Below, piece after piece: positions 42,545 through 57,876 of a DNA stretch of 64,000 bases. Location: the NCBI GenBank assembly GCA_028871475.1, contig JAGWMZ010000019.1, forward strand, positions 16,102 to 80,101. The letters are read 5' to 3'. A model generated the notes under the pieces. The model saw only the letters and a program-made list of their open reading frames with translations. It ran no database searches and was not told the origin of the DNA. How positions within the stretch are numbered: the stretch's first letter is position 1; each line of letters opens with the position of its first letter. Origin of the DNA: Sphingomonadales bacterium (GTDB lineage Bacteria; Pseudomonadota; Alphaproteobacteria; Sphingomonadales; Sphingomonadaceae). Made by a program: the position numbers and the translations under genes.

Positions 42545-42674
42545 GTCGTCGAAATAAACCCCTGATTTTAAAAGATTGACCTCATTTTCCACTTTCGGCG
42601 TCCGCCGAAGGTGTTCCGGGCCTTGTGCCGCATCATGTGACGCGTCGGCACAGGCCAGAACCGAGGACAATCCC

Positions 42675-44603
42675 ATGGCCATTCGCCAGTTGAATCTCAT
42701 CCGCCGCGGCGACACTTTCTATTATCGCGCAAGCTTCTCACTGGATGGAAAGGTTTCGGAGGTAAGGCTCTCGCTGAAGACCGGTGATCGTCGCGTCGCC
42801 CGTCAGCGTGCGATCGAGATGGATCGCCTTCTCAGGAGCCAGTGGCAGCGATTGTCGAGAATGAACGAAGGCATCTCCCCATCAGATCGGCTCTCCATCC
42901 TGCGCGAGGGCGCCATCAGGGCGCGCGACGCCTTCGAGCAGGTTTTCGCGGTTGAGCAGCACGACGGCTACGACGACGCCGATGAGGTTCAGCGCGAGAA
43001 CCTGCGCACGCTGCGCTCCATGGATCTGGTCGTCCGGGACATCTTCGCTCACGGCCTTGGTCCTTCCTTCGGCACGCACGACCATTTCCACTCCCGCTTC
43101 GTCGAAGGGATGCCGGATCTGTCCCTCGAGGACGGCGTCCGGGTGCAGGAGATCCTTTTCGTCGCCGAAGAACTGCGCACCGCGATCCAGAAGGGCGCCC
43201 ATCGGGCTCTGGTCCGTCGGAACCTGGAAGTGACCCCGGCTAACCTGACATTGGCACGTCAGCAGATGATGGCCGGCGTGGCGCTTGCTATGCGCGATCT
43301 CCAGAAGGAGATCGCGGAGCCCCACGCCAAGGTTGACGACATCCTGGCCTCGCTGTCGCTCGACGACCTGATCGCCGGCGCGGGGCGGGAGTCCGATCAG
43401 GCCTCGCAGCCGGCTCCGCCTCCTCCTGCCGCTCCACCGCCAGCGGCCAGGGACATGGCGCCCGCGGCTGCAATTGTCCTGTCCGAGCCGGTCACACCTT
43501 CCGCTTCGGCTATGTCCATCCGCCAGGCATCCGAGGCCTTTCTTGCCGCGAACCCCAAGCTTGACGCCGATGTCGCCGGCGCCCGCTGGACTCCGAAAAC
43601 AAGAAGCCAGTTCGAGGCTGCGATCTTCCTGGCGGACAAGCATTTCGGTTCAACGGCAGATATTCGGGGCATCGAAGAGACCCAACTCGCCAATTTCTTC
43701 CGGGTTCTGCGCAAGCTGCCCAGCTCCCATCACAAGACCCCGGCCCATGCGGGCATGACGCTCGCGGAAATCGGGGCTGCCAACAACGGCGACGGTCTGA
43801 GCCTGGCCACCACCAACCGCCACATGCGCTTCCTCAAGGCCGTCTTCCAATGGGTCGCCAAGCGGACGCCCGGGGCTCCGATCATCGAATGGTCCGCTTT
43901 CATCGAAGCCGACACCCGGCTGAAGCGCGACAAGCGTGACGCCTTCAAGGTCGACGAGTTGGAGAAGCTGTTCCACGGTCCCGTGTGGAGCGGGTCGGAC
44001 TCCCGCACCCGTCGCCTCAAGCCGGGGCACACGGTCTTCCAGGACGCTTGCTACTGGATCCCTTTACTTTTGACCTATACCGGCGCGCGGCGCGAGGAGG
44101 TCAGCAAGGCGATGGTGCAAGACGTCGAACTGATCGACGGCATCTGGTGCCTGCGCATCCGGGTCAGTGAAACCGGGCGGGTCAAGAACGTAGCGGCAGT
44201 CCGGGATGTCCCCGTCGCAACGGAACTCAGGAGGCTCGGCTTCTTGGAATTCGTCGAAGGCGTACGCGCCGAAGGGCACAGCGAGCTGTTCCCGGAACTC
44301 AGCACCGGGGGCGCCACCTACGGCGACGCCTTTTATAAGAGGTGGTGGCGGGCGTTCATGCGCGCTGATCTTGTGCCAATGGGCAAGGACATGCATTCGA
44401 TCAGGCATTTCGTCGCGGTACAGCTGGGAATAAAAGGCGTGTCCGAGGAGCGTCGCGCGGACCTGCTCGGCCACACCCTCGACAGCAGCGAGACGGTCAC
44501 GACCTATAGCGAGCGCGCCCCGCTCGAACTTCTTCTCAAGGTCGTGGACACCATTCCGTTGGTCACCAGGCATCTGAAGAGGATGCCGCTTCGACGACCG
44601 TAA
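42675..44603 (+). CDS. int: tyrosine-type site-specific integrase (large, with Pro/Ala-rich linker)
   Basis: The C-terminal catalytic region has ARREE (Arg), HSIRHF..VQL, LLGH and a downstream Tyr (TTYSER). ATG verified at 42675. Adjacent to the tRNA. Confidence 0.88.
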   Translation: MAIRQLNLIRRGDTFYYRASFSLDGKVSEVRLSLKTGDRRVARQRAIEMDRLLRSQWQRLSRMNEGISPSDRLSILREGAIRARDAFEQVFAVEQHDGYDDADEVQRENLRTLRSMDLVVRDIFAHGLGPSFGTHDHFHSRFVEGMPDLSLEDGVRVQEILFVAEELRTAIQKGAHRALVRRNLEVTPANLTLARQQMMAGVALAMRDLQKEIAEPHAKVDDILASLSLDDLIAGAGRESDQASQPAPPPPAAPPPAARDMAPAAAIVLSEPVTPSASAMSIRQASEAFLAANPKLDADVAGARWTPKTRSQFEAAIFLADKHFGSTADIRGIEETQLANFFRVLRKLPSSHHKTPAHAGMTLAEIGAANNGDGLSLATTNRHMRFLKAVFQWVAKRTPGAPIIEWSAFIEADTRLKRDKRDAFKVDELEKLFHGPVWSGSDSRTRRLKPGHTVFQDACYWIPLLLTYTGARREEVSKAMVQDVELIDGIWCLRIRVSETGRVKNVAAVRDVPVATELRRLGFLEFVEGVRAEGHSELFPELSTGGATYGDAFYKRWWRAFMRADLVPMGKDMHSIRHFVAVQLGIKGVSEERRADLLGHTLDSSETVTTYSERAPLELLLKVVDTIPLVTRHLKRMPLRRP

Positions 44604-46373: not shown

Positions 46374-46973
46374 ATGTCAGGCTTTTCGATCGATCTGTTC
46401 GGCGCTCCCCTGCTGCCTGGTCTCGAAGGGGCCGACGACATCCTTTCCGCAGACGAGGAAGCCGCGCTTATCGCCCGCATCGACGAGCAGGCGCTTTCAC
46501 CCTTCAAGTTCCAGGGATGGGAGGGCAAGCGCCTCACGACCTCCTTTGGCTGGAACTACGACTTCGAGAAGGGAACCGCGGCCCGCGCGGCTGAGATTCC
46601 GGACTGGCTTCAGGCCATCAAGGCGCGGGCCGCCGCCTTCGCCCGACTGCCCGACGGCGAACTCGTCCAGGCGCTGCTGATCCGCTACGATCCGGGCGCC
46701 GGGATCGGCTGGCACAGGGATCGCCCGATATTCGAGCACGTCGTCGGCATCTCGCTCGGCGTCCATGCCGTGATGCGGTTTCGCAGGCGCATCGAGAAGG
46801 GTTTCAACCGCGTCTCGGCGCCGCTCGCTCCCCGCTCGATCTACCATCTGAGCGGCGAAGCCCGGTACGAATGGGAGCACAGCATCGCCGAGATGGAGGA
46901 GACACGCTGGTCCATCACCTTTCGCAGCCTGTCGACGCGGGGCCGACGGGAACTCTATATCGAGCCCGCCTAG
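46374..46973 (+). CDS. alkB: AlkB-like Fe(II)/2-oxoglutarate-dependent dioxygenase
   Basis: IGWHRD (HxD), a distal His (EWEHSI) and RWSITFR (2OG-binding Arg), with the size typical of AlkB repair dioxygenases. Confidence 0.8.
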   Translation: MSGFSIDLFGAPLLPGLEGADDILSADEEAALIARIDEQALSPFKFQGWEGKRLTTSFGWNYDFEKGTAARAAEIPDWLQAIKARAAAFARLPDGELVQALLIRYDPGAGIGWHRDRPIFEHVVGISLGVHAVMRFRRRIEKGFNRVSAPLAPRSIYHLSGEARYEWEHSIAEMEETRWSITFRSLSTRGRRELYIEPA

Positions 46974-47140: not shown

Positions 47141-47833
47141 TCATCCCCGCCAACTGGCTGGGAATAGGCGCTTGAGCGCCTCCACCTTCGGCCGGTCGTT
47201 GATCACGATGTAGGGATAGGTCGGGTTGAGCGCATAGAAGTTCTGGTGGTAGGCCTCGGCCGGGAAGAAGTGCTTGTTGTCCTCGACGCGCGTGGCGATG
47301 GGACGGGCGAAGACGTGAGCCGCCGCGAGCTGCGCGATGTATGCGCGGGCGATCTTGTCCTGTGCCGGGGTCACCGGGAAGAGCGCTGAGCGGTACTGCG
47401 TCCCCACGTCGGGCCCCTGCCGGTTGACGAGCGTGGGATCGGCCACCACCGAAAAGTAGATGCGCAGCAGATCTGAATAGTCGACCTGGGCGGGATCGAA
47501 GACGACCTGGACGGATTCGGCGTGCCCTGTGCTGCCCGTCGAGACCGTCTCGTAGTCGGCGGTCGTCGAGTTGCCTCCCGCATAGCCCGGGGTGGCGCTG
47601 ATGACGCCCCGGACATGGGAGAAGACCCCCTGGACGCCCCAGAAGCAGCCGCCGGCGAAAACGGCGGTTTCGCGATGGCCCGACGCATGCTCGGCGGCGG
47701 CCGGCGGCGGCGCCAGCACGGCGGGCTCCGCGGCGATGCCGGGCGCCATGAAGGCGAGCGCGCCTCCACTGACGCACAACGCGGCGATGAAGGGCATGAA
47801 CCGGGATCTGCGATGGGTGCGAACAAGGGACAT
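47141..47833 (-). CDS. msrA: exported peptide-methionine (S)-S-oxide reductase
   Basis: GGCFWGVQGVF active-site motif and an N-terminal signal-like segment (RRSRFMPFIAALCVSGGALAFMAPGIAA). ATG verified at 47833. Confidence 0.88.
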   Translation of the reverse strand: MSLVRTHRRSRFMPFIAALCVSGGALAFMAPGIAAEPAVLAPPPAAAEHASGHRETAVFAGGCFWGVQGVFSHVRGVISATPGYAGGNSTTADYETVSTGSTGHAESVQVVFDPAQVDYSDLLRIYFSVVADPTLVNRQGPDVGTQYRSALFPVTPAQDKIARAYIAQLAAAHVFARPIATRVEDNKHFFPAEAYHQNFYALNPTYPYIVINDRPKVEALKRLFPASWRG

Positions 47834-48338
47834 GACGGTGAACTCCGTTGGGCGATCCCTCTCAACTACGAAGCGAAGCGGCGGAACGTCACACGGGCTG
47901 CCAAATTTTTTCCTCGATGTCCTCGCGTATCGCGGATGGATCAACCGATGCGGCCCACATCACGTCCGCAGTCGTCAACCTCAGTCGTCGCACCGGCCAG
48001 ACTTGGCGCGTTGCCTATCGGGAGGCTGTGCTTACGGCGATCAGGACAACTGCCGTGAACCGCCCTGCCGCCTTCGGGAAGGTAGCGCCATAGTTCCTCT
48101 CGGGATTGAGTGCGGAAAGCGCCTGACATTCCCTTTTCTGGTGATTGCTCACCTTCCTGCATGTCAGATCGCGCAAGCTACAGAGAACCATCGAAATCCA
48201 TCAAGTCTTGTAAAGACATCTAAAAAACGCATAATAATCTGACGTTATCCATTGGAATCCCTTTTCTTTTATCATGCTTTGTGTCCTGTCTCCTCCAAGC
48301 AACGGACCAAGGGAGATTTTAATCTAAACGACACCTTG

Positions 48339-48359
48339 AATGTCGGATAATCCGACATT
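48339..48359. promoter_or_regulatory. perfect 10-1-10 palindrome, candidate XRE operator
   Basis: AATGTCGGAT-A-ATCCGACATT lies 38 nt upstream of the first ATG of the operon, inside an AT-rich promoter-like stretch. Confidence 0.45.
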
Positions 48360-48396
48360 ATAAAGAAGGAATGTAGGCAAAACGCTCGAGGTCACG

Positions 48397-48741
48397 ATGG
48401 CAACGATCGCTCCCGCAATTCCGAAACCAGACATTTTTCCCCGTGACGACGTCATCAAAGCCTTGGTCGCAGAACTGCTCCAGAATGCAGTCGCCGAGGC
48501 GCAGGTCCGTGGCATCAATCTCCCGGCTGATGTGCCTGGGCGCATGACGGCAGCCGTTCCGATGGATTCACTTTCCGTCGTCGCGACGTTGGTCGCCGTC
48601 GAGGCCGTGGTGGGATTTGAACTGAAGGACAGTCTCGTCCGCACCGGTGGCTACGCCTCGGTCCAAGCTGCCGTCGACCATGTCGTGCCCCGCATCCAGG
48701 CTGTCTGGGAGAAGAAGAAAAGCAAGGGCAAGAAGGCGTGA
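48397..48741 (+). CDS. carrier-protein-like small protein (ACP/PCP-fold candidate)
   Basis: The segment PMDSLSVVATLVAVEAVVGFELKD...YASVQAAVDHV parallels ACP [24 protein letters not shown]...TTVQAAIDYI, including the DSL serine. Its stop overlaps the next start (GTGA). Confidence 0.5.
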   Translation: MATIAPAIPKPDIFPRDDVIKALVAELLQNAVAEAQVRGINLPADVPGRMTAAVPMDSLSVVATLVAVEAVVGFELKDSLVRTGGYASVQAAVDHVVPRIQAVWEKKKSKGKKA

Positions 48742-49106
48742 CCCGCGAAGCACCTCCGATCGAGGACGACGACGCGGCTCGACGCCAGCTCGGCGAGCGA
48801 CTGAAGGAGGCGCGAAAGTACCTCGGCCTGACGCAGGAGGAGGTTGCCGCATATCTTCGGATTGGACGCACCGCCCTCGGAGACATCGAGAGCGGTCAGC
48901 GCCGGGTCGAGGTCATCGAACTGACCCGGCTCGCGAAGCTCTACCGGCAATCGGTGGGATACTTCACCGGCGAGGAGGAATCGTCCGGACTTCCTGCCGA
49001 TGTGGCGCACCTCGCGCGCAGGGTGGCCGATCTGTCGCAAGACGATCGCGACGAACTGGCACGCTTCGCGGATTATCTCCGCACGCGGTCGAGCGGTGAG
49101 CGCTGA
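48738..49106 (+). CDS. XRE-family HTH regulator (ImmR-like)
   Basis: LGERLKEARKYLGLTQEEVAAYLRIGRTALGDIESGQR is a canonical HTH_3 domain. It lies immediately upstream of an ImmA/IrrE-type peptidase. Confidence 0.85.
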   Translation: MTREAPPIEDDDAARRQLGERLKEARKYLGLTQEEVAAYLRIGRTALGDIESGQRRVEVIELTRLAKLYRQSVGYFTGEEESSGLPADVAHLARRVADLSQDDRDELARFADYLRTRSSGER

Positions 49107-49109
49107 ACG

Positions 49110-50120
49110 GTGGCGGCAGATTATCCCAGCGCCGTCAGGGCTGGTGCGCTCGCGGCGGCGCGCCTGCACAACCAACTCGCTGTCCGCGCCGCCGTCGAGA
49201 CCGGAGGCGGTTCCATCGACGTCTTCAGCGCCATCAACGCGCTGGAGCTGCCGCTGCTCCTGCGCCCGCTGAAAGGCCTATTGGGCGCATATCTGAATCT
49301 ACCGGTGCCGGGCGTGCTGGTTACGACCGAACGGCAGATGAGCATCCAGAGGTTCACAGCCGCCCACGAACTCGGCCACTACTTCATGAAGCACGAGCCC
49401 AGCCTCGATGACGAGAGCATCCTGCGACGCATGCCGACGTCTCCCGAGCCCGGCGGACTGTTTCAGGAGGCCGAGGCGGATTCCTTCGCGGTCGCCTTCA
49501 TGATGCCGATGTGGCTGATCCTGATGCACGCTGCCCGACAGGGCTGGCAGGTCCCGGACTTCCAGCGTCCGAACATCGTGTATCAGGCGTCATTGCGCCT
49601 GGGCGCCAGCTACGAGGCCACCTGCAGGACACTCGCCCGTTACGATCTCATCTCCCAGTGGACTATGCACGACCTTCTCAACGTCAAGCCGCGCGAGATG
49701 AAGGTCGATCTCCTCCGGGAGTACCGCCCCCCCAACTACAGGGGCGACGTCTGGCTGCTCACCGCGAAGGACGCGGGGACGCGTATCGATGGCAGCCGCA
49801 ACGACGTGTTCGTGCTCAGATTGAACGAGCATAGTGGTGGTGGCTATCTTTGGGACTTCGAACAGCTGGCGCAAAGTGGTTTCGCCATTGTCCGGGACGA
49901 CCGGGAAGCGATCGATCCCGAGGGGATCGGCAGCCCGGTGATCCGACGCGTGACCGCGGCGATCGAGGATGCCGACCGGGGGCGTATGTCGTTGAGCGAA
50001 CGGCGTCCATGGCAGCCCTCGACCGCGATCGCGGATCTGACCTTCGACTATGATGTCACCGGTCCCGAGCGGGCTGGCCTATCGCGTGCGGAGCGCCGCG
50101 CTCGCCTCGAGGTGGCATGA
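49110..50120 (+). CDS. ImmA/IrrE-family (M78) zinc metallopeptidase fused to a chagasin-like (I42) cysteine-peptidase inhibitor domain
   Basis: HELGHYFMKH zinc motif at 49365-49379 in a COG2856-like context. The C-terminal 105 aa or so carry the three chagasin loop motifs in order: GGGYLWDF (cf. NPTTGYxW), IGSPV (cf. GxGG) and RRPWQP (RPW). GTG start. Confidence 0.75.
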   Translation: MAADYPSAVRAGALAAARLHNQLAVRAAVETGGGSIDVFSAINALELPLLLRPLKGLLGAYLNLPVPGVLVTTERQMSIQRFTAAHELGHYFMKHEPSLDDESILRRMPTSPEPGGLFQEAEADSFAVAFMMPMWLILMHAARQGWQVPDFQRPNIVYQASLRLGASYEATCRTLARYDLISQWTMHDLLNVKPREMKVDLLREYRPPNYRGDVWLLTAKDAGTRIDGSRNDVFVLRLNEHSGGGYLWDFEQLAQSGFAIVRDDREAIDPEGIGSPVIRRVTAAIEDADRGRMSLSERRPWQPSTAIADLTFDYDVTGPERAGLSRAERRARLEVA

Positions 50121-50803
50121 TGGCAACGATTGAGATCGAGGTCGATTTGCGGGAGCGTTTCGGCCCCGCCCGCGACCAGGGCCCGCGACCGACTTGCCTG
50201 GCTTTTGCGACAAGCGACAACCACGCCGGACTTCGCGCGGGCTGGCAGCCGCTCTCGTGTGAATATCTCTACTTCCACGCTCAGCGCCGCGCCGGCCGGT
50301 TGCCAGGGCAAGGGGCCGTGCTCCCGGCTATGCTGGAGGCCCTGCGCGGTGACGGGCAGCCGGTTGAAGCCGGCTGGCCCTATCTGGACGCCTCGCCGCC
50401 GGAAGGCGACGCTTGGAAGCCGCCAATCGAGGTCGGATCATGCTACGGGCGCGTCGGTGTCGCGTCGCAGCCGGACGTTAGCGGCGTTCGCAGCATGCTC
50501 TCGCTGGGCCATCCCATAGTCGTGCTTTCGATGCTCTCGCGCTCATTCTTCAGGCCGGTTGACGGCGCGGTTGCGCCCGTACCGGGAGAGCAGCCGGAAC
50601 CGAGCCAGCGCCATGCGGTCGTCGCCGTCGGCCACGGCAGGGTTGACGGTGAACCGGCGACGCTCGTTCGGAACAGCTGGGGACCCGGGTGGGGGCTCGA
50701 TGGGCACGCATGGCTCACAGACGCATTTCTCGCACCCCGCATCTTCGCCACAGCCACGTTAATGGAGGAAGTGAATGTACCTTCCCGTGCCATCGCAGCC
50801 TGA
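50117..50803 (+). CDS. papain-like (C1 family) cysteine peptidase, no signal peptide, no prodomain
   Basis: DQGPRPTCLAF parallels NQGSCGSCWAF (oxyanion Gln plus catalytic Cys27). HAVVAVGHG parallels HAVAAVGYG. VRNSWGPGWGLDGHAWL parallels IKNSWGTGWGENGYIRI. ATGA overlap with the preceding gene. Confidence 0.78.
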   Translation: MMATIEIEVDLRERFGPARDQGPRPTCLAFATSDNHAGLRAGWQPLSCEYLYFHAQRRAGRLPGQGAVLPAMLEALRGDGQPVEAGWPYLDASPPEGDAWKPPIEVGSCYGRVGVASQPDVSGVRSMLSLGHPIVVLSMLSRSFFRPVDGAVAPVPGEQPEPSQRHAVVAVGHGRVDGEPATLVRNSWGPGWGLDGHAWLTDAFLAPRIFATATLMEEVNVPSRAIAA

Positions 50804-51554
50804 CTGCATCTCCGCATGGCTCAAGGCGGTTCGCCTCGTCGACGCCGAGACCGGCCACCACGCCCACAACGTGATCATCGACGTCGAGGATCCGACGGCG
50901 CGGGCGTCGATGTCGGACCCTGCGGTTGCGGCGGTCAGCCAGTTCCTCGCCGACCACGACAAGAAGCCTGTCGAGACCGTGGCGAACACCATCTTCCCGG
51001 CTGGGCTCTACACCCGATACGGCGCCCCCGCCTTCTTCGACAGGTTCCGGGAGGATGTCCTTCCGAAGGTCCGTCGCTCCGAGGATTGGTCCGGCTACTA
51101 TTTCGAACGGATGATGCATCTGCCTCAGGTCGAGGGCGATCCGATCAACCAGCTCTGGGAGATCGTCGGGCGGCTGCGAAACCCCAATGTGCGGGCGCTG
51201 AACAAGTTCGAGCTGAGCATCTTCGATGCCGCGCGGGACGTGAACGACTCGCCATACGGCGGACAGTGCCTGAGCTTCGCCAGCCTGAAGCTGGTGGGGA
51301 AGCCCGATGCGCGACGGCTCACGATGACGGCCTTCTACCGCAACCACTTCTACATCGAGAAGCTTCTCGGCAACCTCATCGGCCTGGGACGGCTACTCAA
51401 GTTCCTGGCGGTGGAAGGACGAGTCGAAATGGGCTCGCTCACGATCGTGTCAACCCACGCGGAGATCGACATGGCGAAATGGACGCGCGACGACTTCCTC
51501 GAACTGGTGCGAACCGCCGATCAGGCGAACGCCGAAGTCTTGGCCGCTGTGTAG
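50775..51554 (+). CDS. thymidylate synthase / dCMP hydroxymethylase-fold protein (divergent)
   Basis: INQLWEIVGRLRNPNVRA...GGQCLSF...LTMTAFYRNHFYIEKLLGNLIGLGRLLKFLA follows the ThyA pattern DQL...LK.NP.SRR...PCH.F.QF...L.C.LYQRS.D..LG.PFNIASYALL. GGAGG lies 6 nt upstream of the ATG. 29-nt overlap with the peptidase gene. Confidence 0.55.
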   Translation: MYLPVPSQPDCISAWLKAVRLVDAETGHHAHNVIIDVEDPTARASMSDPAVAAVSQFLADHDKKPVETVANTIFPAGLYTRYGAPAFFDRFREDVLPKVRRSEDWSGYYFERMMHLPQVEGDPINQLWEIVGRLRNPNVRALNKFELSIFDAARDVNDSPYGGQCLSFASLKLVGKPDARRLTMTAFYRNHFYIEKLLGNLIGLGRLLKFLAVEGRVEMGSLTIVSTHAEIDMAKWTRDDFLELVRTADQANAEVLAAV

Positions 51555-52219
51555 GCGTTCTCGAAGGGCAGCTTCGGCTCGTCCTCGCCGGACACCCCGT
51601 AGAGGCCGAACATGCTATCGATGAACTCGCGCTGCCCGCCATAGCTCGGGTGCCGCACCCCTTCGGTCGGAAGACCGAATTCCGTGAGCGCCAGCTGCGC
51701 ATCCCGTCCGATCGCGATGATCTGCCGCGGCCTGAGCATCTCGATCAGCGCCTCGAGAAGGGGCCAGGTCGCAACGCGTTCCGCGCGCGTGTGGCAGCGG
51801 TTCGAAAGCGGACTATTGGGCTCGTGAGGGTGGAACGGGAACACGTTCCACAGCATCACCGGCTGGCCGATCCGGCTCAGAACCCTCCATGTCACGGCAG
51901 CCGTCCGCTCGGCCACGACTGGCCCCTCCGTCGCCCGCGCCAGCTCGATCCCGCCCATGAGCGCTGCGGCGCTATCCAGGTGGACCTCGTCGGTAAGGGG
52001 AACGCCAGTCCGGCGCCCTCCCCGGTATCCGAGATCCCGCGCGATCCAGATCGTTTCAACTCTCGTCTCCAGCGCGGCGTCCAGCATCCGCTCCAGATTG
52101 GTCCGCCGCCGCGCCGCCGCGTCCTCGCGGTCATGGACCGGGCACACGTCTGACCACGGATTGAAAACCGAAGGCAGGCGGGCCTCCGAGAGGGCGGTTA
52201 CGAATTCACGGGGCGTCAC
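51521..52219 (-). CDS. uracil-DNA glycosylase-superfamily protein (divergent motif A, HPS motif B)
   Basis: IARDLGYRGGRRTGVPLTDE sits at the motif-A position, with NVFPFHP and GVRHPSYGG (HPS motif B). The GTG start at 52219 overlaps the upstream stop (GTGA). Confidence 0.65.
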   Translation of the reverse strand: MTPREFVTALSEARLPSVFNPWSDVCPVHDREDAAARRRTNLERMLDAALETRVETIWIARDLGYRGGRRTGVPLTDEVHLDSAAALMGGIELARATEGPVVAERTAAVTWRVLSRIGQPVMLWNVFPFHPHEPNSPLSNRCHTRAERVATWPLLEALIEMLRPRQIIAIGRDAQLALTEFGLPTEGVRHPSYGGQREFIDSMFGLYGVSGEDEPKLPFENAYTAAKTSAFA

Positions 52220-53391
52220 TGGGGCAAGTCCTTGATGCGCAGACGGCGGTTGTTCAGGTCTATCGTCACGCGGCCGCGCCGATGCTGCTGGAGGAAGCGG
52301 AACGCCGCGTAGCCCTGGAGGATAGCGTCCTCCCAGAGCCACAATGGGCATTGCGCCACCTCGTAGCCGGCGACGAACTGGCGCACATGCTTCAACATGT
52401 CCAGCGGTAATCCTCCGACCTTCACGTGCGCAAAGAACTCAAGCTGTTGCGCCTGGCCGAACAGCCAGGAGGTGACCCCCTCCTCGATCAGGATCGCCCG
52501 GGCGCCATCCTCCACCTCGTCGATTCGCGGTGCGCTCTTCCGCTTAAGGCGCAGGAGGGACCGGAGGACGGGCGACCAGCCGAGTACCGCGACATAGGCG
52601 TAGTGGAACACGTCATGGAAGCGATAGTCGTCTGGCTCGGCGGAATTGTCGGTGAGCCGATCGCCGACGAACGCCCCGCTCGACCTCTGATATACGTAAG
52701 TCTGCGACCGCACGGTGCGTTCGTAAATGTCGATCGTCATCCTTCTGGGAAGCTGCTCCTCGGGATCCATCGCCGCATCGAAAGACGCCGGATACACCCG
52801 CTCGCGAGGCCAGCGGTCGAAGATCTTGTGGAGATTCTTGACGGCCGCGGCCTCCATGGTCACGCCGGATTCGTTCGCCGCCTGTATGAGCCTCCCCATC
52901 ACCGTTACCAGCCTCCGCCGCAGTTCGGCGGTGACGACGGGGAGCCCCGGACGGAAATCGGCCAGCAGGCCGCCGACTTCGCCGGCAAGCGTCAGCAGGG
53001 TGTTCTCGAATGCCGTGGTCGGGGCCTTCACAAGCGGAATGTGGGCCGGCTGAAGGCTGTGGAACGTAAGGGCGTCGTTGCCGCCCATCACCCACTCCCC
53101 GCCCTCGCGGATGGCTGCCGCGGCAATGTCCGACAGGGAGAAGCGGGTTCGCCGTGAGATGGCGGCTAGATACCAGAGGACGTCGCCGAGCTCCTCGGCC
53201 ACCGCGTCTGCATATCCAAGGTAGGACGCCGCATCACGCTGCTTCTTCTTGGCTACGGAGAGCAGACTTCCCGTCTCTCCGAAGAGCCCAAGCATGGAGA
53301 AGCCGAGGGCTTGGCCCCCTCCCCGCTGGTCCGTCTTGGCCGCCTGCTTGGCGTAGTCCGCCACGGTCAGGGCCTCGAAGTCCTCTCCCAT
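52216..53391 (-). CDS. MazG-like all-alpha NTP pyrophosphohydrolase domain protein with about 230-aa C-terminal region of unknown function
   Basis: The N-terminal domain carries LGLFGETGSL and AVAEELGDVLWYLAAI (EExxD metal motif). A second helical segment ends KNLHKIFDRW. No motif was recognised in the C-terminal half. Confidence 0.65.
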   Translation of the reverse strand: MGEDFEALTVADYAKQAAKTDQRGGGQALGFSMLGLFGETGSLLSVAKKKQRDAASYLGYADAVAEELGDVLWYLAAISRRTRFSLSDIAAAAIREGGEWVMGGNDALTFHSLQPAHIPLVKAPTTAFENTLLTLAGEVGGLLADFRPGLPVVTAELRRRLVTVMGRLIQAANESGVTMEAAAVKNLHKIFDRWPRERVYPASFDAAMDPEEQLPRRMTIDIYERTVRSQTYVYQRSSGAFVGDRLTDNSAEPDDYRFHDVFHYAYVAVLGWSPVLRSLLRLKRKSAPRIDEVEDGARAILIEEGVTSWLFGQAQQLEFFAHVKVGGLPLDMLKHVRQFVAGYEVAQCPLWLWEDAILQGYAAFRFLQQHRRGRVTIDLNNRRLRIKDLPQ

Positions 53392-53396
53392 CAGCG

Positions 53397-53690
53397 CTAG
53401 CCCCCTCTTCGCCGAGCAGTGTCTTCAGGAATGTTCATCCGGTCTGGAGCGAAAGCCCCACGGCCGCTCATTCGGATCGATTCGCCGTAGCGAAATAAGT
53501 GCCGGTCCTGCACTTCTCGTGGGAACTGCGGAAAATGGATCTTGATGTCTTCCCCGACGACCTCATCACCATCCCCCCCTGACGTCATGATGTGTGCATG
53601 AAAACATCGGAAGAGGAAAACATCAAGCTTCTTGCGATACTCGTCTGAATAGGCACCACCCGGCGAGACTAGCGCGACCGATATCCGCAC
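53397..53690 (-). CDS. possible small leader ORF of the MazG-like operon (doubtful)
   Basis: The stop lies 5 nt before the MazG-like ATG. The most plausible start is ATG at 53588 (63 aa). The region has lower GC and weak coding bias. Confidence 0.2.
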   Translation of the reverse strand: MRISVALVSPGGAYSDEYRKKLDVFLFRCFHAHIMTSGGDGDEVVGEDIKIHFPQFPREVQDRHLFRYGESIRMSGRGAFAPDRMNIPEDTARRRGG

Positions 53691-53809
53691 GCTTCGCCAG
53701 ATCGGACAGTTACAGCGGTGAAGCAGAAAGCATCTTCATCGAGGACTTCGGTCGATCGAATTGGCTTTCTGCCTTGCTATTGCGAGGCATGATCCTCCAT
53801 GGGTGGTCG

Positions 53810-54991
53810 ATGACGCATCGCGAACCCCGTGCCTTCTGGATCTGGCTCCATCGCTACACCGGGCTGTTGGCCTGCCTGTTTTTGGGCTTCGCCGCGATAA
53901 CCGGCTGCGTGCTGTGCTTCGTCCGCCCGCTCGATGCGGCGATCAATGCGGACCTGTTCAAGGCGGCGCCCGTGGCGCGGGGGATCGATGTGGCCACGGC
54001 GGTCGACCGCTTCCAGGCGGTACATGCCGACCTGTACGTCCGTTCTTTTCCCCTCTCGATCCCACTCGACCAGACTATTCCGGTGAAGGTGGAAGCGGCG
54101 CGCATGGGTAAGGCCCTGCCGTTCGATCAGGTCTTCCTGGACCGGGGCGACGGGCATCTCGTCGGCACCCGCCGGTCGAAGGCCGCATGGAGCCGCCGGG
54201 GCGCCATGGAACTGTTGCATGACGCGCATTACACGCTGTTGGGTGGCGACTGGGCCAAATGGTTCATGGGTGTGATGGCGTTGCTCTGGCTGATCAGCAA
54301 TCCGGTGGGTGCCTATCTGACCCTGCCGCTGCGCAGGCCCTTCTGGAGGAACTGGCGGCGGATGTGGCGCTTCAGCTTCGGGAGCCAGTTGCCACGCCTG
54401 CTGCTCGACCTGCACCGATCCAGCGGCCTGTGGCTTCTGCTGCCGATGACGGCGCTGGCCTTCACGTCGGTCGCGCTCAACTTCTTTACCCTCGCCTATG
54501 AGCCGACCGTCTCCAAGCTGGTGCCAGCGAACCCCTCGCCCTTCGACGGCAAGCCCGCCTTCCCCACCGGTGTCGCGGGCAAGATCGGGTTTGCCAGGGC
54601 CGTCGCACTGGTCTCGGCAGACAATGTGCGCAGCGGCGAGCCGTGGCTTCCCGCCACCGTGCAATATGTGTCCAAGCGCGGGATCTACGGCGTCTCGCTG
54701 ACCGATGACGGCCTGCCCGGCTACAAGGGCCTGGGTCCGAAAACCATCTACCTGCATGGCGACGGTGGCAGCCCGGCCGGCATGGACAGCCCCTACGGCA
54801 ACCCCGGCCTGGCGCTGATCCCCTTCCTCTATCCCGTCCACAGCGGGCGCATGGGCGGGGTCTGGGGTGTGGCCCTCGTCTTCCTGCTCGGCCTGGTGAC
54901 CACTGGCCATTGCATCACGGGCGTCTACATCTGGTGGAAGAAGCGGCGCTCCCGCGTGGCCTCGGCCCGGAAGGTCGCGGCGGCCCGGTGA
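53810..54991 (+). CDS. PepSY-associated TM-helix domain protein
   Basis: FWIWLHRYTGL at the N-terminus, four TM helices, a C-terminal YPVHSGR...G motif and a basic tail. This is the family usually partnered with TonB-dependent siderophore receptors. Confidence 0.8.
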   Translation: MTHREPRAFWIWLHRYTGLLACLFLGFAAITGCVLCFVRPLDAAINADLFKAAPVARGIDVATAVDRFQAVHADLYVRSFPLSIPLDQTIPVKVEAARMGKALPFDQVFLDRGDGHLVGTRRSKAAWSRRGAMELLHDAHYTLLGGDWAKWFMGVMALLWLISNPVGAYLTLPLRRPFWRNWRRMWRFSFGSQLPRLLLDLHRSSGLWLLLPMTALAFTSVALNFFTLAYEPTVSKLVPANPSPFDGKPAFPTGVAGKIGFARAVALVSADNVRSGEPWLPATVQYVSKRGIYGVSLTDDGLPGYKGLGPKTIYLHGDGGSPAGMDSPYGNPGLALIPFLYPVHSGRMGGVWGVALVFLLGLVTTGHCITGVYIWWKKRRSRVASARKVAAAR

Positions 54992-55376: not shown

Positions 55377-56150
55377 ATGTCCTTGCCTTCTGCCTTCCCT
55401 GCTGCCTCCCGCGACCAACTCGATGCCCTGCGCGCCGAGCTTTCCAGTGCGCGCAGACTGCGGGGGCCGGCTCTGCCCTTTGGCGTGCCGATGCTCGACG
55501 ACCGGCTGGCCGCTCAGGGGCTGGATGGCGCGGGGCTCCACGAGATCGCCGCAGCCTCGTCGCGCCTGGGCGATGACGCTGCAGCCTCCCTCTTCGCCGC
55601 CGGCATCGCCGCACGCTTCGCCGATCAGGGCAACTTCACCGTCCTGTGGGCCCTGTCGCGCTTCGATCTCTATGCTCCCGGCCTGGAACAGGTCGGCCTT
55701 GCTCCCTCGCAACTGCTCTACGCCCAGGGCAGGAACGATCAGGAGGTGCTGGCGGTCGCCGAGGACGCCCTGCGCGACGGCTCGCTCGCCTGCGTGATCG
55801 CGGAAGTGAAGGCGGCCGACATGACCGCCACGCGCCGCCTTCAGCTGGCGACCAGCGACGGCAAGACGCCCATGCTGCTCTACCGGCGACACCGGGCCCG
55901 TGACCACTGCCCGCTGACGCAGAACTCGTCGGCCATGACGCGGTGGCGGATCGGCTGCCTGCCATCCCTTCCACTGCCCCACCCTGGCGTCGGCCGGTCC
56001 CGCTGGTCGGTCGAACTCGTCCGCCAGCGTGGCGGCAATCCCTTTTCCCTCGACTTGGATGCCTGCGATGACAAGGGTTGCCTCGCTCACCCTGCCCTTT
56101 CTGCCGATCGAGCGATTGCGTCGGCTGGAAAGGCCAGTCGCGTGGCCTGA
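55377..56150 (+). CDS. imuA: ImuA, RecA-fold SOS mutagenesis protein
   Basis: It is the first gene of the imuA-imuB-dnaE2 arrangement. It has the G.P.LD..L..GL..G.LHE pattern and a W.VEL.R.RGG tail. Confidence 0.78.
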   Translation: MSLPSAFPAASRDQLDALRAELSSARRLRGPALPFGVPMLDDRLAAQGLDGAGLHEIAAASSRLGDDAAASLFAAGIAARFADQGNFTVLWALSRFDLYAPGLEQVGLAPSQLLYAQGRNDQEVLAVAEDALRDGSLACVIAEVKAADMTATRRLQLATSDGKTPMLLYRRHRARDHCPLTQNSSAMTRWRIGCLPSLPLPHPGVGRSRWSVELVRQRGGNPFSLDLDACDDKGCLAHPALSADRAIASAGKASRVA

Positions 56151-57876
56151 ACCCATCGCCTTCGGCGCGCCTGCGCCCTCCGTCATCGACGACGATCCCG
56201 GCGCCTGCTCGGTGCCGCGTGGCGGTGGCTGGCGCCCCGGCGCGCGATGGGCGCGCGATGGCGCGCTTGCATCAGACAGGGCGAGCCAAGCAGAGATCGA
56301 CACCCTGCCGGCGCACCAGCGCCCGACCATGCGCGAGATGGGCCGCCGCAGCGAAGGTGCGGATCATCCCTTCAAGGCCATGCCAGCTGATGAGGGATCG
56401 CCTGCGCCTGCACCGCGCCTGACCTGGGCCAACCTCTGGGGCACGCCGACCGTGCTGGTCACCCGGACCGGCCAGCGCGACGTGATCACCGCAGCCTGCC
56501 CGGTCGCCATCGGCCTCGGCCTGCATCTCGGCATGGCTGCGGCCCATGCCCGCGCGCTGGTGGCCGATCTGGAAGTGCGCGAGGCGGAACCGCAAAAGGA
56601 CCGCGCTTGGCTCGATCGGCTCGCGCTCCATGCCGTCAGACATTGGACACCCGGCGCCAGCGTTTCAGGGGACGACGGCCTATGGCTGGACCTCTCGGGC
56701 ACCAGCCATCTCTTCGGAGGTGAGGAGCGCTTCTGCCGCCGACTGCTGCGTTTCCTGGCCCGCCTTGGCTTCTCCGCACAAATCGCCATCGCGGGGGCTC
56801 CCGGGGCGGCCAATGCGATGGCGCGCCACGGCGGCAAGGCCATAACGCTGGTCCATCCGGGCCGTGAGGCCGATGCTATCGCATCGCTGCCGCTGGAGGC
56901 GCTGCGGCTTACGCCCGATGTGTTGACGGCTGCAGCACGCGTCGGCCTGGAGCGCATCGCCGATCTCTACCCTATGCCCCGTGGACCTCTGGCCAAACGG
57001 TTCGGCATCGCCACCGTGACCCGCCTCGATCAGGCGCGCGGCATCGTCGCCGAGCCCATCGTGCCGGTGGTGCCCTTCGAGACACCGCAGGCCGAGCGCC
57101 GGCTGCTGGAGCCCATCGGCACGGCCGAGGCGATCGCCCAGGTGATCGGCGATCTGGTCGACGATCTGATGGGCCAGCTGCAGGAGCGCAGGCTGGGCCT
57201 GCGCACCGCCCTGCTCACCTGCCTAGTCGTCGATGGCGGCCAGCAGCGGATCGGGATCGGCACGGCCAAGGCCAGCCGCGATGCCCGCCACCTCAAGCGC
57301 ATGCTCGCCATGCGGATCGATCGCATCGACCCGGGCTTGGGCATCGAGGCGATGACGCTGGTGGCGCCGCGCGTCGAGGACCTGCAGCCTGAAGCCATTG
57401 CCGCCAAGCTGGGCACCGGCGACCGCCCAGCGGAGCTGGCGCCGCTGGTGGATCAGCTCTCTGGCCGGATCGAGCCGCAGGGCTTGTTCCGCATCGAGCC
57501 GAAGGAGAGCGATGTCCCTGAGCGAGCGACCCGTCGCGTCGATCCGTTGTCAAAACCTACAGGCTGGCCGGCATGGAAGCGCCCCGTCAGGCTGCTGGCC
57601 CGCCCGGAACCGCTGGCCCGCGTCATGGCCCTGCTTCCAGACGCGCCACCGCGCCGCTTCGAATGGCGCGGAGCGTCCTATCAGGTTGCCAGTGGCGAAG
57701 GGCCTGAGCGTATCCATGGCGAATGGTGGCGCAACGAGAGGGAGATGTGGGCGGTCCGGGACTATTTCATGGTCGAGGCCCAGACCGGCGAGCGCTTCTG
57801 GCTGTTCCGGCGCGGAGACGGCGTGGAGCCCCCCACAGGCGATTTGTCCTGGTATCTCCATGGGCTGTTCGGCTGA
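56068..57876 (+). CDS. imuB: ImuB, Y-family DNA polymerase-like protein
   Basis: Begins [17 protein letters not shown]. It has the length and position typical of ImuB, and its stop overlaps the dnaE2 start (TGATG). Confidence 0.82.

What the first reader, a model, noticed from the sequence alone, without database searches (positions are those of the whole stretch)
50117..50803. Cytoplasmic, prodomain-less papain-family peptidase
The 228-aa product retains the papain Gln-Cys-His-Asn constellation: DQG..TC27LAF, HAVVAVGHG and NSWGPGWG. It lacks both a signal peptide and the inhibitory propeptide that normally keeps C1A enzymes latent.

An enzyme that is active on synthesis in the cytoplasm would be dangerous without a dedicated inhibitor. 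This fits a toxin or effector role.
Basis: partly seen in the sequence, partly recalled or inferred. Interest (0 to 1): 0.65.

Follow-up and report, generated by a model that had tools for sequence, protein, structure and literature searches.

The report
Latent papain-like protease with fused inhibitor
The gene really encodes a cytoplasmic papain-family protease with no propeptide, but its missing safety catch sits in the gene just upstream, as a chagasin-type inhibitor domain fused to an ImmA/IrrE-type metallopeptidase, and both belong to a mobile, uncharacterised seven-gene cassette that looks like an inducible conflict or defence system.

Summary
ORF 50117-50803 encodes a 228-aa Peptidase_C1 protein. 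Gln21, Cys27, His166 and Asn186 are conserved across its family. It has no propeptide, no signal peptide and no papain-type disulfide cysteine. An AlphaFold2 model (pLDDT 96) matches xylellain and cathepsins.

The upstream gene (49110-50120), whose stop overlaps the C1 start, fuses an ImmA/IrrE (M78) metallopeptidase to a C-terminal chagasin (I42) inhibitor domain. An XRE/CapH-like repressor precedes it.

In 21 of 21 related loci the C1 gene follows this M78-chagasin gene. These loci include alpha-, beta- and gamma-proteobacteria, a Gemmatimonadota MAG and a haloarchaeal plasmid. None of 83 loci with more distant C1 genes has this arrangement.

The conserved operon is: ACP-like protein, HTH, M78-chagasin, C1, thymidylate-synthase-like enzyme. 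Variable nucleotide enzymes sit beside it; here these are a UDG-like gene and a MazG+MazG_C gene. In sphingomonads the whole unit is a sharply bounded 5.06-kb cassette on conjugative plasmids and islands.

Best reading: a repressor/ImmA-controlled conflict (probably anti-phage) cassette in which C1 is a latent protease held by the fused inhibitor. Toxicity, inhibition and the trigger are all untested. I found no description of this system in the papers I could search.

The parts
48336..48364 (+). Promoter with operator. The -35 box is TTGAAT (48336-48341), followed by a 17-nt spacer and the -10 box TATAAA (48359-48364). A perfect palindrome, AATGTCGGAT-A-ATCCGACATT (48339-48359), fills the spacer. 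It is the probable binding site of the HTH repressor.
   Evidence: Sequence read. Palindrome found. The block TTGcATGTCGGAnnATCCGACAyTATA is conserved in 5 sphingomonad loci while everything upstream diverges. It is the only such site in the window. Function is inferred.
48397..48741 (+). First gene of the operon, 114 aa. It encodes an acyl-carrier-protein-like small protein with an invariant Ser58 in a DSL motif and an invariant GGY motif.
   Evidence: Alignments A3 and A7. The PDB profile hits are almost all ACPs, but at E 0.1-1.5. PF00550 is found in 2 of 8 members. hhalign against E. coli AcpP gives E 8.5e-4 and places Ser58 on the phosphopantetheine-attachment Ser36. Some source databases name it acyl carrier protein. 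PPTase genes lie next to it in L015 and L020. Support is moderate to weak.
48738..49106 (+). XRE-family HTH repressor, 122 aa, CapH/DdrO/ImmR-like.
   Evidence: Pfam HTH_3 2.2e-11. PADLOC capH 1.3e-12, matching profile positions 7-98 of 103. Present in every related locus that has upstream sequence.
49110..50120 (+). ImmA/IrrE (M78) zinc metallopeptidase fused to a C-terminal chagasin (I42) cysteine-peptidase inhibitor domain, 336 aa. The M78 domain spans about aa 36-175 (49215-49634) and the chagasin domain about aa 214-316 (49749-50057). A conserved tail (G323-LSRAERR...LEVA) follows.
   Evidence: Pfam PF06114 scores 32 bits and PF09394 scores 30.4 bits, both above their cut-offs. PADLOC capP 7.5e-13. 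Family profile against PDB: amoebiasin-2 2.7e-10, P. aeruginosa ICP 5e-7, chagasin 2e-6, IrrE 7e-7, CapP 1.5e-6. H86, E87, H90, E120, G245, W248, G274 and W301 are invariant, and R299 is present in at least 90%. Pfam on 13 diverse members finds M78 in 13/13 and I42 in 11/13.
50117..50803 (+). The finding itself: a prodomain-less, signal-less papain-family (C1) cysteine peptidase, 228 aa, with Q21, C27, H166 and N186. The disordered C-terminal tail ends in -AIAA.
50775..51554 (+). Thymidylate-synthase-superfamily enzyme of an undescribed family, 259 aa. Its start overlaps the end of the C1 gene by 29 nt. The nucleophile-like Cys165 (GGQCLSFxSFK) and the YRNH and LGNLIGL motifs are conserved.
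   Evidence: All 12 diverse members match TIGR03283 thymidylate synthase, with a best E of 8.8e-12, all below the naming cut-off. There is no Pfam hit. Alignment A2. hhalign against a bona fide PF00303 TS gives E 1.1e-3 with the Cys aligned. It follows the C1 gene in every locus with downstream sequence.
51521..52219 (-). Uracil-DNA-glycosylase-superfamily protein, convergent with the operon. The probable true start is the GTG at 52219, which gives 232 aa. The longest ORF reaches 52351.
   Evidence: Pfam PF03167 8.1e-6, 26.4 bits against a cut-off of 24.3. RefSeq calls its homologues 'uracil-DNA glycosylase'. It is present in 8 of 12 complete related loci. The start is inferred from homologue lengths and the 4-nt overlap seen in L001.
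52216..53391 (-). MazG NTP pyrophosphohydrolase fused to a MazG_C domain (a predicted nucleotide kinase), 391 aa.
   Evidence: Pfam PF18722 6e-81 and PF03819 1.9e-5. Present in all 10 genome loci, and also in L011, L019 and L024.
48335..53395 (.). The whole cassette. It forms a single uninterrupted block of about 70% DNA identity with sphingomonad plasmid and chromosomal copies. The block runs exactly from the -35 box to the MazG start codon, and the flanks are unrelated.
   Evidence: blastn of the window against L001, L002, L003, L006, L008 and L024.

Best explanation
The ORF encodes a catalytically competent, cytoplasmic papain-family cysteine protease made without a propeptide. It is kept latent in trans by the chagasin-type (I42) domain at the C-terminus of the protein encoded immediately upstream and translationally coupled to it.

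That upstream protein is also an ImmA/IrrE/CapP-type zinc metallopeptidase. It is paired with an XRE/CapH-like repressor, which probably binds the palindrome inside the operon's own promoter.

The five co-directional genes are: ACP-like protein, repressor, M78-chagasin, C1 protease and a thymidylate-synthase-like enzyme. Together with adjacent nucleotide enzymes (here UDG-like and MazG+MazG_C) they form a mobile cassette.

My proposed mechanism is as follows.
1. In the resting state the repressor keeps expression low, and any C1 made is bound 1:1 by the chagasin domain.
2. A stress signal of the kind sensed by ImmA/IrrE/CapP peptidases activates the M78 domain. Candidate signals are DNA damage, phage replication or incoming ssDNA.
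3. The M78 domain cleaves the repressor and the operon is induced.
4. The C1 protease is freed by loss or rearrangement of the inhibitor protein. It then acts as the proteolytic effector or activator of the system, alongside the nucleotide-modifying arm.

Shown: gene content and order, domain identities, conservation of the catalytic residues and inhibitor loops, strict co-occurrence, and mobility.

Inferred: inhibition of C1 by the chagasin domain, repressor cleavage, the trigger, the release step, the substrates, and the defence function.
For: C1 identity and competence.

No propeptide or signal peptide; papain's disulfide Cys22 is replaced by an invariant Arg24.

Chagasin domain: Pfam above cut-off; family profile against PDB gives amoebiasin-2 2.7e-10, PA-ICP 5e-7 and chagasin 2e-6; I42 in 11/13 diverse members. 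The residues of the three inhibitory loops are invariant or nearly so down to 29% identity and into an archaeon: GYxW in L2, G274 in L4, R299-P-W301 in L6. Several of the matched PDB entries are chagasin-protease complexes according to my recollection, which makes this mode of inhibition structurally established.

Gene coupling: the ATGA overlap with the inhibitor gene first.

Co-occurrence: 21/21 family loci have M78-chagasin directly upstream of C1, against 0/83 loci with more distant C1 genes.

Regulator identity: PADLOC capH 1.3e-12 and capP 7.5e-13; IrrE and CapP structures hit by the family profile; invariant HExxH plus E. CapH/CapP biology is taken from bioRxiv 10.1101/2022.04.27.489752 and PMC13228613.

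Conserved promoter with a palindrome in the spacer.

Conflict or mobile context:
- 24 plasmid records, 11 of them conjugative.
- Next to an AbiEii toxin and a T4SS on pTA15-1.
- Next to a restriction endonuclease, a 5-hmdU DNA kinase and Tmk on a Haloarcula plasmid.
- Sharply bounded cassette.
- The window copy lies in a tRNA-Gln/integrase island.

Analogy: the validated E. coli defence system DS-3/NTTI combines TS, dNMP kinase, 5-hmdU kinase and a TIR effector. MazG/MazG-C+UDG systems are predicted to be defensive (PMC13092281).
Against: Nothing here is experimental. Toxicity, inhibition, repressor cleavage and phage protection are all untested.

The canonical chagasin L2 motif NPTTG is replaced by E-H/K-x-x-x-G, so affinity could differ from that of classical chagasins.

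The GAF domain, which forms half of the ssDNA-binding groove in CapP and IrrE, is absent here and replaced by the chagasin domain. The CapP cysteine-switch loop is absent too. ssDNA sensing therefore cannot simply be carried over.

Translational coupling predicts inhibitor and protease in equal amounts even after induction, and I have no evidence for how C1 is released.

The AlphaFold2 model of the M78-chagasin protein was poor (pLDDT 54) and gives no structural support.

The C1 protein and the TS-like protein match no PADLOC model.

In this window the immediate neighbours are not defence genes: MsrA, an AlkB-like oxygenase and a PepSY protein.

The obligatory partnership with a TS-like enzyme and an ACP-like protein is not explained by a simple 'killer protease' model.
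Confidence: 0.55

Rival explanations
1. The C1 enzyme is a processing or maturation enzyme rather than a toxin. It is a regulated protease, amidase or acyl-transferase that activates or edits another cassette component: the TS-like enzyme, the ACP-like protein or a carrier-bound intermediate. The real effector would then be the nucleotide-modifying arm, for example production of a modified or toxic pyrimidine nucleotide. The chagasin domain would time that activation.
For: The TS-like gene is translationally coupled to C1 by a 29-nt overlap and follows it in every locus with downstream sequence.

The variable neighbours are all nucleotide enzymes: MazG/MazG_C, UDG, a true TS, dCTP deaminase, 5-hmdU DNA kinase and Tmk.

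An ACP-like protein with an invariant Ser, and PPTase genes nearby in two loci, suggest carrier-protein chemistry.

In the validated NTTI system the TS/kinase genes accompany a separate effector, so the nucleotide enzymes could act as the sensor or generator and the protease as a relay.
Against: The active site and fold are those of bona fide endopeptidases, and the partner is a classical tight-binding protease inhibitor.

I identified no cleavage site or pro-sequence in the TS-like or ACP-like proteins.

No adenylation or loading enzyme for the carrier protein is present.
Confidence: 0.22
2. The cassette is a toxin-antitoxin-type addiction module for plasmids and islands. C1 is a stable toxin, the M78-chagasin protein a labile antitoxin and the HTH protein an autorepressor. 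Its selective value would be post-segregational killing or competition between mobile elements, not phage defence.
For: The gene order is inhibitor first with overlapping genes. It sits on conjugative plasmids and integrase-linked islands. There are none in 50,697 phage records.

In the close alphaproteobacterial clade, C1 ends in -AA in 115/120 cases and M78-chagasin in 103/120 (mostly -EAA). These endings are reminiscent of ClpXP-type C-terminal degrons and so suggest regulated instability.

Xre-COG2856 pairs have been discussed as TA-like modules; this rests on my own recollection of Makarova et al. 2009 and was not checked here.
Against: Both partners carry the -AA ending, so differential stability is not evident. 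The ending is rare in distant members (14/148).

A two-gene TA does not need five to seven conserved genes, including a TS-like enzyme.

Many TA systems are themselves defence systems, so this rival overlaps the main model.
Confidence: 0.15
3. It is an ordinary housekeeping cytoplasmic peptidase, a functional analogue of PepC/bleomycin hydrolase. Alternatively it is a secreted virulence effector aimed at a host, with the chagasin domain protecting against foreign proteases.
For: Cytoplasmic C1-family aminopeptidases without propeptides do exist (C1B, PepC); this is from my own knowledge. The bacterial chagasins characterised so far target host plant proteases (bioRxiv 10.64898/2026.06.02.729523).
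Against: There is no PF03051 (C1B) match for the window protein. The distribution is patchy and mobile, and the gene is always inside the same cassette.

Neither protein has a signal peptide or lipobox. The chagasin domain is fused to a cytoplasmic regulator-type peptidase.

The previously studied bacterial chagasins are secreted or surface-anchored, and the organism studied there lacks an endogenous C1 enzyme. That is the opposite of the situation here.
Confidence: 0.03

Closest known systems
Papain-family (MEROPS C1A) peptidases; the closest solved bacterial example is xylellain from Xylella fastidiosa (PDB 3ois)
   Same: The fold matches (Foldseek TM about 0.76). The order Gln-Cys-His-Asn, the NSWG motif and the Gly-rich substrate-binding strand are the same.
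   Different: There is no I29-type propeptide, no signal peptide and no disulfide cysteines (papain Cys22 is replaced by an invariant Arg24). The protein is compact, at about 205-230 aa. Latency appears to be supplied in trans by a separately encoded inhibitor domain rather than by a cis propeptide.
Chagasin/ICP family (MEROPS I42): chagasin-cruzipain in T. cruzi, amoebiasins, P. aeruginosa ICP, Pseudomonas Cip1 and Cpi1
   Same: The sequence family is the same (Pfam above cut-off; PDB profile hits between 2.7e-10 and 7.5e-6 for most entries). The L4 Gly and the L6 RPW motif are conserved, as is GYxW in L2. As in T. cruzi, the inhibitor is paired with an endogenous C1 enzyme.
   Different: Here the domain is cytoplasmic and fused to the C-terminus of an ImmA/IrrE metallopeptidase. 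The NPTTG core of L2 is replaced. The characterised bacterial members are secreted or lipoprotein inhibitors aimed at host proteases. I found no paper linking chagasin and ImmA.
CapH/CapP, DdrO/IrrE and ImmR/ImmA repressor-metallopeptidase switches
   Same: An XRE HTH gene is followed by an M78 peptidase gene at the head of an operon. The HExxH plus Glu zinc site is invariant. PADLOC matches capH and capP at about 1e-12, and the IrrE and CapP structures are hit. The promoter carries a palindromic operator.
   Different: CapP and IrrE have a C-terminal GAF domain that forms the ssDNA-binding groove together with the peptidase domain, and many CapP proteins have a cysteine-switch loop. Here the GAF domain is replaced by a protease-inhibitor domain and there is no cysteine in the equivalent loop. 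The controlled operon, C1 plus a TS-like enzyme, is not among those listed in the CapH/CapP papers, where 'papain' and 'chagasin' each occur 0 times.
Nucleotide-modification-type defence systems: the validated E. coli DS-3/NTTI (TS + dNMP kinase + 5-hmdU DNA kinase + TIR + Nmad2) and the predicted MazG/MazG-C + UDG systems (DefensePredictor, PMC13092281)
   Same: The enzymes come from the same families and are clustered with an effector-type protein: TS superfamily, MazG, the MazG_C predicted kinase and UDG. In the haloarchaeal copy there are also a 5-hmdU DNA kinase and Tmk.
   Different: The TS-like protein here belongs to a separate family with no Pfam model. The effector-type protein is a C1 protease with a dedicated inhibitor rather than a TIR domain. 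An HTH/ImmA switch and an ACP-like protein are integral parts. None of the terms 'Peptidase_C1', 'PF00112', 'Inhibitor_I42', 'PF09394' or 'papain' occurs in that paper's held supplements.

Membership tests
Peptidase family C1 (papain family, clan CA) | Significant match to the family profile | tested here: met
   PF00112 scores 34.4 bits against a cut-off of 20.7. Relatives match over profile positions 4-204 of 220. 158 PDB papain-family chains are hit.
Peptidase family C1 (papain family, clan CA) | Catalytic Gln, Cys, His and Asn in that order, conserved across homologues | tested here: met
   C27, H166, N186 and W188 are invariant and Q21 is present in at least 90% of 34 sequences down to 32% identity.
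Peptidase family C1 (papain family, clan CA) | Papain fold | tested here: met
   AF2 pLDDT 96.1. Foldseek PDB top hits are all C1 peptidases, TM 0.72-0.77.
Peptidase family C1 (papain family, clan CA) | Proteolytic activity | not testable with these tools
   Requires an enzyme assay.
Typical C1A zymogen (cathepsin/papain type) | N-terminal inhibitory propeptide (I29) and a signal peptide | tested here: not met
   The ORF cannot extend upstream. The Cys sits at residue 27. The family-wide Cys position is 21-27 and there is no hydrophobic N-terminus.
C1B (bleomycin hydrolase / PepC) | Match to PF03051 Peptidase_C1_2 | tested here: not met
   No PF03051 hit at E<=0.01 for the window protein.
Chagasin / ICP inhibitor family I42 (for residues about 214-316 of the upstream protein) | Significant match to the family profile and to solved members | tested here: met
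   PF09394 scores 30.4 bits against a cut-off of 27.2 and is found in 11/13 diverse members. PDB hits: amoebiasin-2 2.7e-10, PA-ICP 5e-7, chagasin 2e-6.
Chagasin / ICP inhibitor family I42 | Three conserved inhibitory loops: L2 NPTTG(Y/F)xW, L4 Gly-rich, L6 RPW | tested here: inconclusive
   L6 (R299-P-W301) and L4 (G274) are conserved. L2 keeps G245-Y-x-W248, but NPTT is replaced by E-H/K-x-x.
Chagasin / ICP inhibitor family I42 | Tight-binding inhibition of a C1 peptidase | not testable with these tools
   No multimer prediction or assay was available. The single-chain AF2 model was poor.
CapH/CapP (IrrE/DdrO, ImmA/ImmR) regulatory pair | Adjacent XRE HTH gene and M78 metallopeptidase gene with an intact HExxH...E site | tested here: met
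CapH/CapP (IrrE/DdrO, ImmA/ImmR) regulatory pair | C-terminal GAF domain forming the ssDNA groove (CapP/IrrE architecture) | tested here: not met
   The C-terminal domain is I42, not GAF. The CapP architecture is taken from PMC13228613.
CapH/CapP (IrrE/DdrO, ImmA/ImmR) regulatory pair | Signal-dependent cleavage of the repressor | not testable with these tools
   Requires biochemistry.
Known anti-phage systems in PADLOC-DB v2 | Core proteins match a system model | tested here: not met
   The C1, TS-like, ACP-like, UDG-like and MazG proteins give no hits. Only the regulators match, to capH/capP and RmrA.
Thymidylate synthase superfamily (for the downstream 259-aa protein) | Profile match with a conserved nucleophile Cys | tested here: met
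   12/12 members hit TIGR03283, best 8.8e-12, below the equivalog cut-off. Cys165 is invariant. It is not a member of Pfam PF00303.

The most novel reading that the evidence does not exclude
This would be a previously undescribed class of inducible conflict or anti-phage system. In it, an ImmA/IrrE-type sensor peptidase physically carries a chagasin 'safety catch' for a papain-like executioner protease. Activation of the sensor would derepress the operon and also release the protease. The protease would then kill the cell, or cleave invader proteins, in concert with a thymidylate-synthase-like nucleotide-modifying arm and an ACP-like carrier protein. The system is spread by plasmids and islands across bacteria and haloarchaea.
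Probability: 0.3. Interest if true: 0.8.

Novelty: new variant of a known kind. Interest (0 to 1): 0.64.

Why it matters
Papain-family proteases are normally made as zymogens for export or for lysosomes. Here a large prokaryotic family, about 1,800 clusters at 90% identity, makes them naked in the cytoplasm and appears to solve the latency problem with an inhibitor domain fused to a stress-responsive regulator peptidase.

If the model holds, it would add a protease-inhibitor pair of eukaryote-parasite fame (cruzipain-chagasin) to the repertoire of prokaryotic conflict systems. It would give chagasin-type inhibitors an endogenous cytoplasmic role in bacteria and archaea. It would show a new way of wiring an ImmA/CapP-type switch, with an effector-docking domain in place of the GAF sensor domain. 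It would also link proteolysis to the emerging class of nucleotide-modification defences.

The system is compact (5 kb) and self-contained. It can be tested directly by expression, point mutants and phage or plasmid assays.

Tried and rejected
1. AlphaFold2 of the M78-chagasin protein, using a 26-sequence alignment at 65% identity or more, gave pLDDT 54. I did not use it.

2. I searched for the far end of the tRNA-Gln island. No repeat of the tRNA 3' end and no convincing direct repeat was found in the window. The island limits remain undefined.

3. I looked for a second copy of the operator palindrome in front of the MazG/UDG pair and found none. Common regulation of the convergent pair is therefore unsupported.

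4. P0341, a 1181-aa protein containing a C1 domain, was examined as a possible 'Rosetta stone' fusion. It is simply a protein with three C1 domains.

5. Phage collections gave no family members. There was no hit in 50,697 GenBank phages. The 80 IMG/VR loci hold only generic C1 genes at 33% identity or less, without the partner genes. A prophage origin is rejected.

6. The TS-like profile against PDB by sequence found nothing meaningful. The assignment rests on NCBIfam and hhalign.

Nothing links chagasin with ImmA, COG2856 with papain, or Peptidase_M78 with Peptidase_C1. Burroughs et al. 2015 (NAR 43:10633) could not be read. A look-up under the PMC id I recalled for Iyer et al. 2013 also failed. 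Those are the papers most likely to mention MazG_C or TS-type systems, so prior in-silico description cannot be excluded.

8. The housekeeping PepC-like and secreted-effector readings were considered and rejected (see the rival explanations).


Full report
**1. The observation**

ORF 50117-50803 (+) is real and encodes 228 aa. It begins at the first start codon after an in-frame stop, so it cannot be longer at the N-terminus. Its ATG overlaps the stop codon of the upstream gene as ATGA.

Pfam assigns it to Peptidase_C1 above the curated threshold (34.4 bits against 20.7). phmmer finds 158 papain-family chains in the PDB.

In an alignment of 34 family members down to 32% identity, C27, H166, N186 and W188 are invariant and Q21 is nearly so. 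Papain's disulfide-forming Cys22 is replaced by an invariant Arg24.

An AlphaFold2 model is very confident (pLDDT 96.1, pTM 0.93). Its best structural matches are all C1 peptidases, led by the bacterial enzyme xylellain and by cathepsins S and H, with TM-scores of about 0.72-0.77.

The family is uniformly short. There are 3,341 representatives at E<=1e-3 and 120 at E<=1e-30, nearly all 205-230 aa and aligning from residue 2-5. The catalytic Cys sits at residue 21-27, and no member has a hydrophobic N-terminus.

**2.

The upstream gene (49110-50120, 336 aa) has two Pfam domains above threshold. One is Peptidase_M78 (ImmA/IrrE) and the other is a C-terminal Inhibitor_I42 domain, the chagasin family of tight-binding inhibitors of papain-like peptidases.

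A profile of 13 diverse homologues hits the following in the PDB:
- amoebiasin-2 (2.7e-10)
- the P. aeruginosa inhibitor of cysteine peptidases (5e-7)
- chagasin (2e-6)
- for the N-terminal half, IrrE (7e-7) and CapP (1.5e-6)

Across those 13 sequences, which go down to 29% identity and include an archaeon, the zinc site H86-E87-x-x-H90...E120 is invariant. So are the key residues of the three chagasin loops: G245-Y-x-W248 in L2, G274 in L4 and R299-P-W301 in L6. The classical NPTTG core of L2 is not kept.

The gene before that (48738-49106) is an XRE HTH protein. PADLOC matches it to CapH and matches the M78 protein to CapP.

CapH/CapP, DdrO/IrrE and ImmR/ImmA are repressor-peptidase switches. 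In them a stress-activated metallopeptidase cleaves the repressor. In CapP and IrrE the signal, ssDNA, binds between the peptidase domain and a C-terminal GAF domain. In the protein here, the chagasin domain occupies the position of the GAF domain.

**3. A conserved, mobile cassette**

All ten loci recovered from representative genomes keep the same genes around C1. They come from sphingomonads, Erythrobacter, Inquilinus, a Longimicrobiales MAG, a Pseudomonas and an alphaproteobacterial MAG.

Five distant homologues at 32-36% identity keep them too. So do a Burkholderia glumae plasmid and a Haloarcula marina plasmid.

In total, 21 of 21 family loci have the M78-chagasin gene directly upstream of C1, and every locus with downstream sequence has the same roughly 260-280-aa gene after it. 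Three plasmid-borne C1 genes at 28-29% identity and 80 IMG/VR loci at 33% or less have none of the partners.

The co-directional core has five parts:
- a 114-aa protein
- the HTH repressor
- M78-chagasin
- C1
- a thymidylate-synthase-superfamily enzyme

For the TS-like enzyme, 12 of 12 members hit TIGR03283, best 8.8e-12, and Cys165 is invariant. It has no Pfam family.

The 114-aa protein looks like an acyl carrier protein. It has a DSL motif with an invariant Ser58 that aligns on the phosphopantetheine-attachment Ser of E. coli AcpP (hhalign E 8.5e-4). Its PDB profile hits are nearly all ACPs but individually insignificant. PPTase genes are adjacent in two loci.

The flanking partners vary but are always nucleotide enzymes:
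- MazG+MazG_C and a UDG-like gene here
- a true thymidylate synthase in L013
- a dCTP deaminase in L015
- a 5-hmdU DNA kinase plus Tmk, next to a restriction enzyme, in the archaeon

At the DNA level, the window shares one uninterrupted block of about 70% identity with sphingomonad copies. It runs from 48335 to 53395, exactly from the -35 box to the MazG start codon, and the flanks are unrelated.

The promoter is TTGAAT-17 nt-TATAAA. It carries a perfect palindrome in its spacer that is conserved among sphingomonad copies and unique in the window.

The family is found in 24 plasmid records, 11 of them conjugative, and in none of 50,697 phage genomes. On pTA15-1 it lies between an AbiEii toxin with IS elements and the T4SS genes. 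In the window it lies in a region that starts with tRNA-Gln and an integrase-like gene.

**4. Mechanism**

Shown:
- domain identities
- conserved catalytic residues and inhibitory loops
- gene order with the inhibitor first and overlapping
- strict co-occurrence
- a private promoter with an operator
- mobility

Inferred: the chagasin domain binds and blocks C1 as chagasin blocks cruzipain, cathepsins and papain. The HTH protein represses the operon, and the M78 domain removes it on a stress signal. C1 is then released to act.

I rate the pairing of C1 with its inhibitor at about 0.8. I rate the whole 'inducible conflict system with C1 as latent effector' model at about 0.55.

The release step is unknown. 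One observation bears on it. In the close alphaproteobacterial clade, C1 ends in -AA in 115/120 cases and the inhibitor protein in 103/120, and the TS-like proteins have similar endings. These are reminiscent of ClpXP-type degrons, but they are rare in distant members.

The main rival (0.22) is that C1 is a processing enzyme serving the TS-like/ACP-like arm. A TA-type addiction role (0.15) overlaps with the main model. Housekeeping or secreted-effector roles are unlikely (0.03).

**5. Comparison with what is known**

The enzyme is a member of family C1, and the feature-by-feature tests were met. It is not a typical C1A zymogen, and it is not C1B.

The inhibitor domain is a member of I42 with a divergent L2 loop. 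Characterised bacterial chagasins are secreted or surface-anchored and act on host proteases. A cytoplasmic chagasin fused to ImmA/IrrE was not found in the searchable literature.

The regulator pair resembles CapH/CapP but fails the GAF-domain and cysteine-switch features. The CapH/CapP papers do not mention papain or chagasin.

The nucleotide arm resembles the validated DS-3/NTTI system and the predicted MazG/MazG-C+UDG systems of DefensePredictor. That paper's text and held supplements contain no C1 or I42 term.

RefSeq already names the proteins generically: 'C1 family peptidase', 'ImmA/IrrE family metallo-endopeptidase' and 'protease inhibitor I42 family protein'. The genes are therefore known. 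The system and its logic, as far as I could check, are not described.

Burroughs et al. 2015 could not be read, and a look-up under the PMC id I recalled for Iyer et al. 2013 also failed. An earlier purely computational mention remains possible.

**6. Verdict**

This is a new variant of known kinds: a C1 protease-chagasin pair and a CapH/CapP-type switch, combined in an undescribed architecture inside a widespread mobile cassette. Interest: 0.64.

Noticed in passing
window 48397-48741 (+); also L015 4141-4560, L020 3591-4238: The first gene of the operon encodes an ACP-like 114-aa protein with an invariant Ser58 (DSL motif) and an invariant GGY motif. 4'-phosphopantetheinyl transferase genes lie beside the operon in a metagenomic locus and on the Haloarcula plasmid. 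A carrier protein inside a repressor/ImmA-controlled operon is unexplained.
   Followed up: partly
window 50775-51554 (+): This is a thymidylate-synthase-superfamily enzyme of a family with no Pfam model. Cys165 is invariant and there are YRNH and LGNLIGL motifs. It always follows the C1 gene and overlaps it by 29 nt here. Its substrate is unknown.
   Followed up: partly
window 51521-53391 (-): A convergent pair, UDG-superfamily protein plus MazG fused to MazG_C (a predicted nucleotide kinase), belongs to the same conserved DNA block. It lacks the operator palindrome, and the similarity block ends at its start codon, so its promoter is not conserved. DefensePredictor lists a similar MazG/MazG-C+UDG pair as a predicted, unvalidated defence system.
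   Followed up: partly
C-termini of window 49110-50120, 50117-50803, 50775-51554 and their close homologues: Three proteins of the operon end in Ala-rich tails: ...LEVA here (mostly ...EAA in homologues), ...AIAA and ...LAAV. In the close clade, 115/120 C1 and 103/120 M78-chagasin sequences end in -AA, against 14/148 distant C1 representatives. These may be ClpXP-type degrons.
   Followed up: partly
L010 6075-7940: In an uncultured alphaproteobacterial MAG, the C1 gene is split just before the RNSWG motif by an insertion of about 1.9 kb. The insertion encodes a 460-aa reverse transcriptase/maturase with a YADD motif, which is group II intron-like.
   Followed up: partly
L020 (Haloarcula marina plasmid NZ_CP100410.1) 1-7427: The archaeal copy of the operon sits beside a 5-hmdU DNA kinase (PF18723, 2e-66), a dTMP kinase, a PPTase and a restriction endonuclease. 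This is a link to DNA-hypermodification-type enzymes and a case of inter-domain transfer.
   Followed up: partly
window 42470-44603: tRNA-Gln (42470-42544) is followed immediately by a 675-aa integrase-like gene. Its Phage_integrase and DUF6538 matches are both below the Pfam cut-offs. This suggests a genomic island, but no repeat of the tRNA 3' end was found in the window.
   Followed up: partly
window 55377-61136 (+): This looks like an imuA-imuB-dnaE2 type mutagenesis cassette. It comprises a 257-aa protein with no Pfam hit, a 615-aa Y-family polymerase-like protein (IMS plus DUF6504) and a 1137-aa DNA polymerase III alpha paralogue. It lies downstream of a PepSY_TM protein (53594-54991).
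   Followed up: partly
window 46374-46973 (+) and 47141-47944 (-): An AlkB-like 2OG-Fe(II) oxygenase and a methionine sulfoxide reductase A lie between the integrase and the cassette. They are not conserved next to the cassette elsewhere.
   Followed up: no
L019 9423-9737 (Burkholderia glumae plasmid): A DUF4031 protein follows the MazG/MazG_C gene in this copy, and a site-specific integrase lies next to the cassette.
   Followed up: no
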